Shown here: piece after piece, positions 28,258 through 29,550 of the stretch
How the letters are laid out: every line of letters begins with the position of its first letter
Position numbering within the stretch: position 1 is the first letter of the stretch
Assembly (NCBI RefSeq): GCF_054482525.1
Contig: NZ_CM137006.1
Reading direction: 5' to 3' (one strand)
Length of the DNA stretch: 64,000 nucleotides
Notes under the pieces: generated by a model
The model's input: the letters and a program-made list of their open reading frames with translations, nothing else
What the model was told of the DNA's origin: nothing
Databases searched by the model: none
Made by a program: the position numbers and the translations under genes

Positions 28258-29550
28258 ATGCGCTATAATGGTTTAAATAATATGTTTTTTCCTCTTTGCC
28301 AGATTAACGATAACCACTCTGTCACAAGTCCATCACATACAAAGAAAACAAAATCAGATAATTATAGCAAACATCATAAAAACACGTTAATTGACAATAA
28401 AGCCCTCTCTCTTTTCAAAAAAGATGATCATGAAAAAGTGATAGGCTTGATTCAGAAAATGAAAAGATTTTATGATAGTTTGCCATCAGGAAAAATCACG
28501 AAAGAAACGGACAGGAAAATACATAAACATTTTATAGATATAGCTTTATATGCAAATAATAAATGTGACGATAGAATTACGAGAAGAGTTTACCTTAGTA
28601 AAGAAAAGGAAGTGTCCATTAAGGTGGTATATTTTATAAATAATGTCACCGTCCATAATAATACTATCGAAATCCCACAGACAGTAAATGGTGGTTACGA
28701 TTTTTCACACCTTAGCCTGAAAGGTATCGTGATTAAAGATGAAGATTTATCCAATTCGAATTTTGCAGGTTGCAGACTACAAAACGCTATTTTCCAGGAC
28801 TGTAATATGTATAAAACGAATTTTTATTGCGCCATAATGGAAAAAATACTTTTTGATAATTGTATTCTCGATGACTCAAATTTCGCTCAGATAAAAATGG
28901 CTGACGGAACTCTAAATGCTTGCTCCGCTATGCATGTTCAATTCTTCAATGCAGCAATGAATAGAGCCAATATTAAAAATACCTTCCTTGATTATTCAAA
29001 TTTTTATATGGCGTACATGGCTGAGGCAAATCTTTATAAAGTAATAGCGCCATATGTTAATTTATTTAAAGCCGACCTTAGTTTCTCTAAACTCGATTTA
29101 ATTAACTTTGACCATGCTGATCTGTCTCGCGTCAATCTGAACAAAGCAATCCTCCAGAATATAAACTTAATTGATAGCAAACTCTTTTTTACGCGGCTGA
29201 CAAATACATTCCTCGAAATGGTTATATGTACCGGCTCTAATATGGCTAATGTTAATTTTAATAATGCCAATTTAAGCAACTGCCATTTCAACTGTTCTGT
29301 TTTAACAAAAGCCTGGATGTTTGATACCCGTCTCTATCGGGTTAATTTCGATGAGGCTAACGTGCAGGGAATGGGCATTTCCATTCTCCGTGAGGAGGAA
29401 AATATCCCCATTAATAGTGATACCCTGATAACACTACAGAAATTCTTTGAAGAAGATTGTACCTCTCATACTGACATATCACAAACTGAGGATAATATTC
29501 ATGCAGTCGCTATGAAGATTACTGCAGATATTATGCGAGATGCAGATTGA
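28258..29550 (+). CDS. yjcF: YjcF-locus pentapeptide-repeat protein (EspX-like, AT-rich orphan gene)
   Basis: 430-aa ORF in a sharply AT-rich segment; central run of A(D/N)LxX-type pentapeptide repeats; good SD (AAGGA) before ATG. Confidence 0.7.
   Translation: MRYNGLNNMFFPLCQINDNHSVTSPSHTKKTKSDNYSKHHKNTLIDNKALSLFKKDDHEKVIGLIQKMKRFYDSLPSGKITKETDRKIHKHFIDIALYANNKCDDRITRRVYLSKEKEVSIKVVYFINNVTVHNNTIEIPQTVNGGYDFSHLSLKGIVIKDEDLSNSNFAGCRLQNAIFQDCNMYKTNFYCAIMEKILFDNCILDDSNFAQIKMADGTLNACSAMHVQFFNAAMNRANIKNTFLDYSNFYMAYMAEANLYKVIAPYVNLFKADLSFSKLDLINFDHADLSRVNLNKAILQNINLIDSKLFFTRLTNTFLEMVICTGSNMANVNFNNANLSNCHFNCSVLTKAWMFDTRLYRVNFDEANVQGMGISILREEENIPINSDTLITLQKFFEEDCTSHTDISQTEDNIHAVAMKITADIMRDAD

What the first reader, a model, noticed from the sequence alone, without database searches (positions are those of the whole stretch)
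28258..29550. AT-rich single-gene islet encoding a 430-aa pentapeptide-repeat protein (yjcF locus), effector-like
The gene and its flanks are markedly AT-rich relative to neighbouring acs/actP/yjcE, indicating horizontal origin and likely H-NS silencing. The protein has an N-terminal Lys/Ser/His-rich region followed by a long run of pentapeptide repeats, the architecture of the EspX family of type III effectors and the N-terminal region of SopA/NleL-like proteins. No T3SS is present in this window, so if expressed it would be an orphan.
Basis: partly seen in the sequence, partly recalled or inferred. Interest (0 to 1): 0.45.

Follow-up and report, generated by a model that had tools for sequence, protein, structure and literature searches.

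The report
E. coli yjcF/espX5 pentapeptide-repeat gene
This AT-rich single-gene islet is the already catalogued E. coli gene yjcF, also named espX5: an H-NS-bound, E. coli-only pentapeptide-repeat protein that databases label a type III "effector" although I found no report that it is secreted.

Summary
ORF 28258-29550(+) encodes a 430-aa protein with 44 uninterrupted pentapeptide repeats, and the gene is far more AT-rich than its neighbours (GC 33.9% against about 55%).

It is a known gene. The window matches E. coli PCN033 at 100%. The ORF is yjcF, the ortholog (92% aa identity, same actP-yjcE site) of O157 Sakai ECs_5048, "EspX5, T3SS effector-like protein". H-NS binding at this locus is published.

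Similarity to EspX1/2/4/6, PipB2 and SopA/NleL is limited to the generic repeat region. EspX5 lacks the SopA central and catalytic domains. Its N- and C-terminal parts have no homolog in 1.84 billion proteins. It is not among the non-LEE effectors listed as secreted. It occurs in 94% of non-B2 E. coli whether or not the ETT2 marker is present.

New details found here:
- The locus has three states: espX5, an lrgAB-lysR cassette in B2 strains, or empty.
- Selection is weak but real (dN/dS about 0.44) and preserves the beta-helix core.
- The window's truly SopA-like protein is EspX4 at 59024-60604.

Novelty: already known. Interest: low.

The parts
28110..29640 (.). Variable AT-rich islet between the core genes actP and yjcE (about 1.53 kb). 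In other E. coli this segment is replaced by an lrgB-lrgA-lysR cassette or is absent.
   Evidence: Homology to the empty allele (L003) and to the alternative-cassette allele (L004) stops at window 28107-28114 and resumes at 29704. The AGGTGC..GCACCT hairpin near 29643-29668 is also found in the empty allele. GC profile.
28092..28111 (+). GC-rich hairpin just after the actP stop codon (CCCCGGTC-GCCT-GACCGGGG). It is the last conserved element before the islet.
   Evidence: Read from the sequence. It is shared with the alternative-cassette allele.
28112..28257 (+). AT-rich upstream region of yjcF, containing the Shine-Dalgarno AAGGA at 28247-28251. In K-12 the equivalent yjcF/actP spacer is listed as an H-NS-bound 'promoter island'.
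   Evidence: Sequence. Literature: PMC3661553 and bioRxiv 10.1101/559138. My consensus promoter scan found no excess over shuffled sequence (8 sites against 6.0 +/- 2.3).
28258..29550 (+). yjcF / espX5 coding sequence, 430 aa.
   Evidence: ORF. 100% DNA match to E. coli PCN033, annotated yjcF. 92.3% aa identity to Sakai EspX5 ECs_5048 at the syntenic site. The exact protein is AKK50994.1, in an all-E. coli cluster of 11,060 sequences.
28258..28416 (+). Residues 1-53: predicted disordered, basic segment rich in Ser/Thr/Asn/Lys/His.
   Evidence: AF2 pLDDT 26-39. Composition. Only 13% of sites vary among 12 alleles, making it one of the most conserved parts.
28417..28698 (+). Residues 54-147: small orphan domain with two helices (55-73, 82-101) followed by short strands.
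   Evidence: AF2 pLDDT about 60-72 for the helices. An exhaustive phmmer search of residues 1-152 against 1.84 billion representatives found only fragments of the same gene. No phage hit, and no hit on a true plasmid.
28711..29370 (+). Residues 152-371: 44 contiguous pentapeptide repeats, forming an 11-coil right-handed quadrilateral beta-helix.
   Evidence: Pfam. Register analysis. AF2 pLDDT 87-97. Best fold matches are HetL, designed solenoids, AlbG, QnrB1 and MfpA. The central hydrophobic position varies in only 2 of 44 repeats.
29371..29547 (+). Residues 372-430: acidic C-terminal tail (pI 4.25) with low-confidence helices. It is the fastest-evolving part.
   Evidence: dN/dS is 0.6-1.0 and 37% of sites vary.
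29626..29683 (.). Long imperfect hairpin between the convergent genes yjcF and yjcE. Its core is AGGTGCA-AAAGAT-TGCACCT followed by TTTTT. It is probably a bidirectional terminator.
   Evidence: Inverted repeat I1, 27-nt arms, 81% complementary. Sequence. The simple terminator scan did not call it.

Best explanation
The feature is the known E. coli gene yjcF, also named espX5. It is an AT-rich single-gene islet, found so far only in E. coli, that has been inherited vertically for a long time in the non-B2 part of the species. H-NS binds the locus in K-12.

The protein has no catalytic domain. It consists of:
- a conserved, basic, disordered N-terminus (residues 1-53);
- a small orphan domain (54-147);
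- an uninterrupted 11-coil pentapeptide-repeat beta-helix (152-371);
- a variable acidic tail (372-430).

The most likely mode of action is as a non-enzymatic binding scaffold that engages a partner along the beta-helix, and is made only when H-NS silencing is lifted.

Shown here: gene identity, synteny, composition, fold, restriction to E. coli, and weak purifying selection.
Inferred: the scaffold mechanism, and silencing in this particular strain.

The 'T3SS effector' label rests only on generic repeat similarity and is unproven. I put delivery by any type III system at about 0.25-0.3.
For: Identity:
- 100% DNA match to PCN033 yjcF.
- Sakai ECs_5048 'EspX5, T3SS effector-like protein EspX' at the same actP-yjcE site, 92.3% aa identity.
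- PGAP and cluster names 'espX5: T3SS effector pentapeptide repeat protein EspX5'.

Foreign composition: GC 33.9%, GC3 33%, against 55-57% and 62-67% in the flanks.

H-NS: used as a known H-NS ChIP target in K-12 and listed as an H-NS-bound promoter island.

Fold: Pfam; 44 in-register pentapeptides; AF2 beta-helix pLDDT 87-97; PDB fold matches are all generic pentapeptide proteins.

Lineage restriction:
- In 5.8 billion proteins, full-length homologs are only from E. coli at >= 86% identity.
- The N-terminal domain has no relatives in 1.84 billion representatives.
- No phage or true plasmid copies.

Old vertical inheritance: dS of yjcF (0.09-0.12) is similar to the flanks (0.05-0.19).

Functional constraint:
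- omega about 0.44, binomial P = 6e-5 against neutrality.
- The central repeat position varies in 2 of 44 repeats, against 9-12 of 44 at other positions.
- The N-terminus is the most conserved part.
- 33 of 39 sampled full-length DNA matches are exactly 1293 bp.

No catalytic or defence domain.
Against: - omega is 20-50 times higher than in neighbouring genes.
- The gene is missing from about 24% of complete genomes.
- Truncated forms make up a sizeable share of database entries. So the function, if any, is dispensable.
- No binding partner is known.
- H-NS binding was shown in K-12, not in this strain.
- The only phenotypes in the searchable library are hits in pooled ASKA overexpression screens, for persister waking and oxidant resistance, plus a weak FlhDC gSELEX peak.
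- The AF2 model is uninformative for residues 1-53, 100-126 and the tail.
Confidence: 0.7

Rival explanations
1. EspX5 is a genuine type III secretion substrate. Its N-terminal 50 or so residues act as the secretion signal. The beta-helix binds a host protein after injection by the LEE system where that is present, or by ETT2 or a flagellar export apparatus in strains such as PCN033.
For: - It is named in the EspX candidate family, whose members EspX2 and EspX7/NleL are listed or reported as translocated effectors.
- Best effector-model hits are PipB2 (E 1.9e-12) and PipB (E 2.2e-9).
- The N-terminus is disordered, rich in Ser/Thr/Asn/Lys, has no acidic residue in the first 17 positions, and is conserved.
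- The islet is AT-rich and H-NS-bound, like many virulence genes.
- PCN033 has an ETT2 cluster and a Flag-2 system.
- Both espX5 and ETT2 are absent from B2 strains.
Against: - It is not among the 32 non-LEE effectors identified as secreted, and I found no translocation data in the searchable library.
- The similarity is generic: HetL scores higher than PipB2, and every effector model is far below its cut-off.
- The non-repeat regions are unrelated to any other EspX protein.
- There is no SopA central or catalytic domain.
- espX5 frequency in eivA-positive genomes (93.5%) equals the non-B2 background (93.7%), and about 70% of carriers lack eivA.
- The gene is intact in K-12 and BL21 records.
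- ETT2 is widely degraded.
Confidence: 0.27
2. YjcF acts inside the bacterium like Qnr, MfpA, AlbG or McbG. In that case the beta-helix mimics DNA and modulates DNA gyrase or another nucleic-acid enzyme.
For: - Fold matches include AlbG, QnrB1, MfpA and EfsQnr.
- NCBIfam Qnr models give weak hits, E 9e-9.
- The gene is retained in strains without any injectisome.
- K-12 overexpression phenotypes hint at an intracellular effect.
Against: - The Qnr family model scores 35 bits against a cut-off of 240, and MfpA 21 against 360.
- The repeat domain is only mildly acidic (net -3, pI 5.8).
- The protein carries an extra 147-aa basic N-terminal region and a 59-aa tail, whereas the matched Qnr, MfpA and AlbG chains are only about 180-220 aa.
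- The Qnr-type surface loops are absent, because the 44 repeats are uninterrupted.
Confidence: 0.12
3. The gene is a silenced evolutionary relic with no current function, persisting only because H-NS silencing makes it cost-free.
For: - omega is strongly elevated relative to the neighbours.
- The gene has been lost or replaced in about 24% of genomes.
- Many entries are truncated.
- H-NS binds the locus.
- EspX5 could not be expressed in a yeast screen.
Against: - omega is significantly below 1 (P = 6e-5).
- Substitutions avoid the beta-helix core positions.
- The N-terminus is conserved.
- The 430-aa frame is kept across alleles differing by up to 13% in protein.
Confidence: 0.25
4. It is a single-gene anti-phage defence protein occupying a variable hotspot.
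For: - It is a variable single-gene islet between core genes, and the site has alternative occupants.
- There is a weak hit to the Hailong effector HalA model (22.9 bits).
Against: - PADLOC found no match at E <= 1.
- The HalA score is far below its cut-off of 250.
- The alternative occupant is an lrgAB-lysR cassette, not a defence system.
- The site has only three states across 5,400 genomes, unlike a defence hotspot.
Confidence: 0.03

Closest known systems
EspX5 (ECs5048 / Z5666) of E. coli O157:H7, which is YjcF (b4066) of K-12
   Same: It is the same gene. It has the same actP-yjcE position, the same length (430 aa), 92.3% aa and 95.7% nt identity, and the same Pfam content.
   Different: The window carries a divergent allele. 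PGAP labels it only 'pentapeptide repeat-containing protein', while alleles closer to Sakai and K-12 receive the EspX5 name.
Other EspX proteins (EspX1, X2, X4, X6, X7/NleL) and Salmonella SopA
   Same: They share a name and, for EspX4 and EspX6, pentapeptide repeats (22-31% identity in that region). All are AT-rich chromosomal or prophage genes.
   Different: EspX5 has no SopA central domain (PF13981, present in EspX4 at 177 bits) and no SopA_C catalytic domain (present in EspX2). Its N- and C-terminal regions are unrelated to theirs. EspX1 has almost no repeat signal. The 'family' is therefore not one homologous architecture.
PipB2 / PipB (Salmonella SPI-2 pentapeptide-repeat effectors)
   Same: The layout is the same: a non-repeat N-terminus, a pentapeptide beta-helix, then a short C-terminal tail. 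These are the best effector-model hits (E 1.9e-12 and 2.2e-9).
   Different: Scores are 46.7 against a cut-off of 354, and 36.9 against 274. The alignment covers the repeats only. Secretion has not been shown for EspX5.
Qnr / MfpA / AlbG topoisomerase-protecting pentapeptide proteins
   Same: The same right-handed quadrilateral beta-helix fold.
   Different: EspX5 is roughly twice the length of the matched chains and has extra terminal regions. It has no interrupting loops. It is only mildly acidic. Model scores are far below the cut-offs.
Cyanobacterial pentapeptide proteins (HetL, Np275/276, Rfr)
   Same: These give the highest sequence and fold similarity of all (HetL 63.7 bits; Foldseek E 8.5e-11).
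   Different: Identity is only about 20-30% within the repeats. The terminal domains, taxon and genomic context are all unrelated.

Membership tests
Pentapeptide repeat protein family (Pfam PF00805 / PF13599 / PF13576) | Tandem A(D/N)LXX-type pentapeptides scoring above Pfam's gathering thresholds | tested here: met
   76.4, 70.4 and 39.3 bits against cut-offs of 38, 20.2 and 27. There are 44 repeats in one register.
Pentapeptide repeat protein family | Right-handed quadrilateral beta-helix fold | tested here: met
   AF2 pLDDT is 87-97 over residues 150-370. Top PDB fold matches are HetL, AlbG, QnrB1 and MfpA. This is a prediction, not a solved structure.
EspX5 / YjcF orthologous group | Syntenic position between actP and yjcE, with high full-length identity | tested here: met
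   Same neighbours in PCN033, 19KM1776 and Sakai. 92.3% aa identity over 430 of 430 residues.
EspX family, taken as a homologous family | Similarity extending beyond the generic repeats, that is, a shared N- or C-terminal domain | tested here: not met
   The N-terminal 147 aa and C-terminal 59 aa give no hit better than E = 0.4 against EspX1/2/4/6 in a seven-sequence database.
SopA / NleL-like HECT-type effectors | SopA-like central domain (PF13981) | tested here: not met
   Absent from YjcF/EspX5 at E <= 1 and from Sakai EspX5. Present in the window's EspX4 at 177 bits.
SopA / NleL-like HECT-type effectors | C-terminal HECT-like catalytic domain (PF13979, NF011904) | tested here: not met
   No PF13979 hit. 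NF011904 scores 17.4 bits against a cut-off of 500. SopA and NleL chains are absent from the PDB sequence search at E <= 1.
PipB2 / PipB effector families (NF011743, NF011744) | Score above NCBIfam's curated cut-off | tested here: not met
   46.7 bits against 354, and 36.9 against 274.
Type III secreted effector (functional class) | T3SS-dependent secretion or translocation shown experimentally | not testable with these tools
   EspX5 is not among the 32 non-LEE effectors listed as identified. The yeast screen gave no expression and so no data. The original paper (Tobe 2006) is not in the library.
Type III secreted effector (functional class) | Genomic association with a T3SS | tested here: not met
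   No T3SS gene lies in the window. espX5 is present in 93.5% of eivA-positive genomes, against 93.7% of all non-B2 genomes. About 70% of carriers lack eivA.
Qnr / MfpA topoisomerase-protecting proteins | Score above the family cut-off | tested here: not met
   The Qnr model scores 35.3 bits against 240, and MfpA 21.1 against 360.
Known anti-phage defence proteins | Match to a PADLOC model or to the HalA model | tested here: not met
   PADLOC gave no hits at E <= 1. HalA scores 22.9 bits against 250.
H-NS-silenced xenogeneic gene | AT-rich relative to the host genome | tested here: met
   GC 33.9% against a window mean of 51.3%, z = -3.0. GC3 33% against 62-67% in the flanks.
H-NS-silenced xenogeneic gene | H-NS occupancy, and derepression in an hns mutant | not testable with these tools
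   The literature reports H-NS ChIP signal at yjcF and an H-NS-bound promoter island in K-12. Neither was tested in PCN033. I retrieved no derepression data.

The most novel reading that the evidence does not exclude
EspX5/YjcF is a genuine secreted substrate of a non-LEE export system (ETT2 or a flagellar or Flag-2 apparatus). It is kept by selection in about three quarters of E. coli, commensals included, because of a host-directed or surface role. In that case the conserved disordered N-terminus would be its secretion signal.
Probability: 0.12. Interest if true: 0.5.

Novelty: already known. Interest (0 to 1): 0.14.

Why it matters
As a discovery it matters little, because the gene, its EspX5 name and its H-NS binding are already on record.

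The practical point is a caution about annotation. RefSeq labels and genome-survey papers present espX5 as a T3SS effector or virulence gene in thousands of genomes, including K-12 and BL21. The evidence assembled here shows that:
- the label rests on generic repeat similarity;
- the 'EspX family' is heterogeneous;
- gene presence is independent of the ETT2 marker tested, and the gene is intact in K-12 and BL21 records.

Counting espX5 as a virulence marker is therefore unjustified until secretion is tested.

The gene is still a tidy example of an old, H-NS-bound, species-restricted orphan that remains under weak purifying selection.

Tried and rejected
- **Single-sequence AlphaFold** failed (pLDDT 32), and that model was discarded.
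- **Tobe et al. 2006**, the original EspX paper, is not held in the library. Whether EspX5 was ever individually tested for translocation could not be read directly.
- **Scan of 100,044 species-representative genomes** returned only a 235-bp, low-coverage contig filed under Henriciella marina, which is probably E. coli contamination. The scan uses exact octapeptides, so it finds only close relatives. The E. coli representative itself gave no hit, perhaps because it is a B2 strain (from memory, untested). This result is therefore weak evidence about distribution.
- **Exhaustive search with the N-terminal domain** found only fragments. The 67-72%-identity fragments come from error-rich assemblies of the same locus.
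- **Phage and plasmid searches:** no phage match. The seven 'plasmid' hits are megabase-size chromosomal records.
- **Other libraries:** PADLOC gave none, PHROGs gave only generic repeat families of unknown function, and Rfam gave only a chance U4 hit at E = 0.86.
- **Boundary direct repeat D3** (20 nt, 15 of 20 matches, at 28125 and 29648) looked like a possible insertion scar. My rough estimate gives a chance probability of about 0.1-0.2, and the empty allele is not a simple excision product. I rejected it as evidence of a mobile element.
- **Promoter-like sites** are not enriched over shuffled sequence.
- **ETT2 co-occurrence** was tested as support for an ETT2-effector idea. It is fully explained by the shared absence from B2.
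- **90%-identity cluster look-up for the alternative-cassette proteins** returned only E. coli members (15 of the 40 read per cluster are listed), so the ancestral state of the locus stays unresolved.
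Full report
**Observation**

The ORF at 28258..29550 (+) is real. It starts at ATG, encodes 430 aa, and is preceded by AAGGA six bases upstream. GC falls from 53-58% in actP and yjcE to 29-40% across the gene. The gene has GC 33.9% and GC3 33%, against 55-57% and 62-67% for actP, yjcE, ghxP and acs. Among all windows of the same length in the 64-kb sequence, z = -3.0, and only 1.4% are as AT-rich.

Pfam gives three pentapeptide-repeat families above their curated cut-offs. Residues 152-371 read as 44 consecutive pentapeptides in one unbroken register, which is eleven full coils. 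The last 58-59 aa are acidic (pI 4.25).

**Identity**

The region matches E. coli PCN033 at 100% and is annotated yjcF, between actP and yjcE. In O157:H7 Sakai, the gene at the same position is ECs_5048, annotated 'EspX5, T3SS effector-like protein EspX'. The two proteins are 92.3% identical over all 430 residues.

PGAP names the gene 'espX5: T3SS effector pentapeptide repeat protein EspX5' in many genomes, including K-12 BW25113, MG1655 and BL21(DE3). The exact window protein (AKK50994.1) belongs to an all-E. coli cluster of 11,060 sequences that carry either name. The window allele lacks the EspX5 label apparently because it is a divergent allele.

The yjcF locus has been used as a known H-NS ChIP target in K-12, and the yjcF/actP spacer is listed as an H-NS-bound 'promoter island'. 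The H-NS idea is thus also already documented. It has not been tested in this strain.

**How specific is the effector resemblance?**

Not very.
- Against Sakai EspX1, X2, X4 and X6, similarity is confined to the repeat region (22-31% identity). The N-terminal 147 aa and C-terminal 59 aa match nothing.
- NCBIfam effector models are far below their cut-offs: PipB2 46.7 bits (cut-off 354), PipB 36.9 (274), SopA/NleL-type ligase 17.4 (500). The cyanobacterial HetL model scores higher, at 63.7 bits.
- The PDB sequence search returns designed solenoids, Nostoc proteins, AlbG and Qnr, but not SopA or NleL at E <= 1.
- An AlphaFold model built with an alignment gives a confident beta-helix (pLDDT 87-97). 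The 50 fold matches listed are led by generic pentapeptide proteins, and none is SopA, NleL or PipB2.

Pfam also shows that the 'EspX family' is heterogeneous.

| Member | Pfam content |
|---|---|
| EspX1 | repeat signal below the cut-off (18 bits against 38) |
| EspX2 | SopA_C catalytic domain only |
| EspX4 | repeats plus a strong SopA central domain (177 bits) |
| EspX5 | repeats only |
| EspX6 | repeats only |

EspX5 therefore resembles only the least specific part of SopA/NleL.

Ogura et al. 2007 count 32 non-LEE effectors identified as secreted. Only three lie outside prophages, and their table lists EspX2 and EspX7 but not EspX5. In a screen of about 200 effectors, EspX5 was not expressed in yeast and gave no result. 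I found no secretion or translocation data. The original 2006 paper is not in the library.

**Distribution and evolution**

The gene is in 4,113 of 5,426 complete E. coli genomes. The actP-yjcE junction has three states:
- espX5;
- a 2.1-kb lrgB-lrgA-lysR cassette with host-like GC (51%), in 1,038 genomes that include CFT073, ST131, APEC O1 and F11, which from my own knowledge are classic B2 strains;
- an 82-bp empty spacer, in about 270 genomes.

Homology between alleles breaks just after the actP hairpin, at about 28110. A terminator hairpin near 29643-29668 is shared with the empty allele. No convincing insertion scar or mobile-element signature is present.

Outside E. coli nothing comparable was found:
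- In 5.8 billion proteins, full-length homologs are all from E. coli at >= 86% identity. The next hits are cyanobacterial repeat proteins at about 30% identity over half the length.
- An exhaustive search of the N-terminal domain against 1.84 billion representatives found only fragments of the same gene.
- Phage and genuine plasmid copies are absent.

Synonymous divergence among three alleles (dS 0.09-0.12) is similar to that of the flanking genes (0.05-0.19). The gene has therefore been inherited vertically for a long time.

Selection is relaxed but not absent:
- dN/dS is 0.38-0.48, against 0-0.025 for the neighbours.
- On a three-allele star tree, omega is about 0.44, with P = 6e-5 against neutrality.
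- Among 12 distinct alleles, the central hydrophobic repeat position varies in only 2 of 44 repeats, against 9-12 of 44 at other positions.
- The share of variable sites is 13% in the N-terminus, 20% in the repeats and 37% in the tail.

**Link to a secretion system**

The window has no T3SS genes. The genome paper for PCN033 (phylogroup D, porcine ExPEC) reports no LEE, a partial ETT2 cluster and a Flag-2 system. PCN033 was also positive for my ETT2 marker.

I cross-tabulated markers with concatenated queries:
- The ETT2 gene eivA is in about 1,308 genomes.
- It occurs in essentially none of the genomes with the B2-type cassette.
- About 1,223 eivA-positive genomes also carry espX5, which is 93.5%.
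- espX5 frequency in all non-B2 genomes is 93.7%.
- About 70% of espX5 carriers lack eivA.

There is thus no association beyond the shared absence from B2. Most carriers could not export the protein through ETT2.

**Interpretation**

The best-supported description is an old, H-NS-bound accessory gene, found so far only in E. coli. It encodes a non-catalytic beta-helix scaffold with an orphan N-terminal module, and it is under weak purifying selection. The scaffold mechanism and conditional expression are inferences.

Rival readings:

| Reading | Confidence | Main point |
|---|---|---|
| True T3SS substrate | about 0.27 | Supported mainly by the name, the PipB2-like layout and the conserved disordered N-terminus |
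| Functionless silenced relic | about 0.25 | Weakened by omega < 1 and by conservation of the beta-helix core |
| Qnr-like intracellular DNA mimic | about 0.12 | Fold only; family model scores fail |
| Anti-phage defence gene | about 0.03 | No PADLOC match |

K-12 overexpression screen hits and a weak FlhDC SELEX peak do not discriminate between these.

**Verdict**

The effector claim is not substantiated. The gene is already known, so interest is low. The useful by-product is a documented caution against treating espX5 as a virulence marker.

Noticed in passing
window 59024-60604 (-), within AT-rich islet 59002-60835: There is a second 'EspX' gene in the window: EspX4/YjbI, 526 aa, 87% identical to Sakai ECs_5021. 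It combines pentapeptide repeats with a strong SopA-like central domain (PF13981, 177 bits, residues 293-425). That makes it the window's truly SopA/NleL-like protein. It lies in the most AT-rich stretch of the window (GC 33.5%, minimum 30.5%) and is an intact ORF here.
   Followed up: partly
window 28013-29783, 41823-43095, 49566-51382, 59002-60835: The window has four long AT-rich islets. They hold espX5; a tyrB-aphA spacer with a 174-aa ORF that has no Pfam hit; a DUF2713 protein at 50024-50980 (-); and espX4. All four coincide with the H-NS-bound 'promoter islands' listed for K-12 in PMC3661553 (yjcF/actP, tyrB/yjbS, zur/yjbL, malM/yjbI).
   Followed up: partly
window about 28110-29640; loci L003 (1981-2064) and L004 (9520-11600): The actP-yjcE junction is a three-state replacement site in E. 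coli. espX5 is in 4,113 genomes. An lrgB-lrgA-lysR cassette (GC 51%, >= 99% identical) is in 1,038 genomes of B2 type. An 82-bp empty spacer is in about 270 genomes. The empty allele is not a simple excision product. Which state is ancestral is unresolved.
   Followed up: partly
Sakai loci L005 (3331-4752), L009 (30216-32228), L006 (9013-10593), L008 (15393-17600), L002 (25056-26348): The 'EspX family' is not one architecture. EspX1 has almost no repeat signal. EspX2 has only a SopA_C catalytic domain. EspX4 has repeats plus the SopA central domain. EspX5 and EspX6 have repeats only. Their non-repeat regions are mutually unrelated, except between EspX2 and EspX4.
   Followed up: yes
E. coli genome records for the yjcF locus: Annotation depends on the allele. 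Alleles close to Sakai and K-12 are named 'espX5: T3SS effector pentapeptide repeat protein EspX5', even in K-12 and BL21. The window allele and its relatives are named only 'yjcF: pentapeptide repeat-containing protein'. The name appears to follow sequence identity rather than evidence of secretion.
   Followed up: partly
window 29687-29710: The 'yjcF' reverse ChIP-qPCR primer in bioRxiv 10.1101/559138 matches the 3' end of yjcE and the adjacent spacer, not yjcF itself. The reported H-NS signal therefore refers to the edge of the islet.
   Followed up: no
locus L010 (Henriciella marina NZ_JAPWGW010000108.1, 235 bp): A 235-bp contig at 0.9x coverage, in an alphaproteobacterial assembly, encodes residues 287-363 of YjcF at 95% identity. 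This is almost certainly E. coli contamination of that assembly.
   Followed up: no
window 28125-28144 and 29648-29667: An imperfect 20-nt direct repeat (15 of 20 matches) sits at the two edges of the islet, and the right copy lies in the terminator hairpin. My rough estimate puts this within chance for AT-rich DNA (P about 0.1-0.2).
   Followed up: partly
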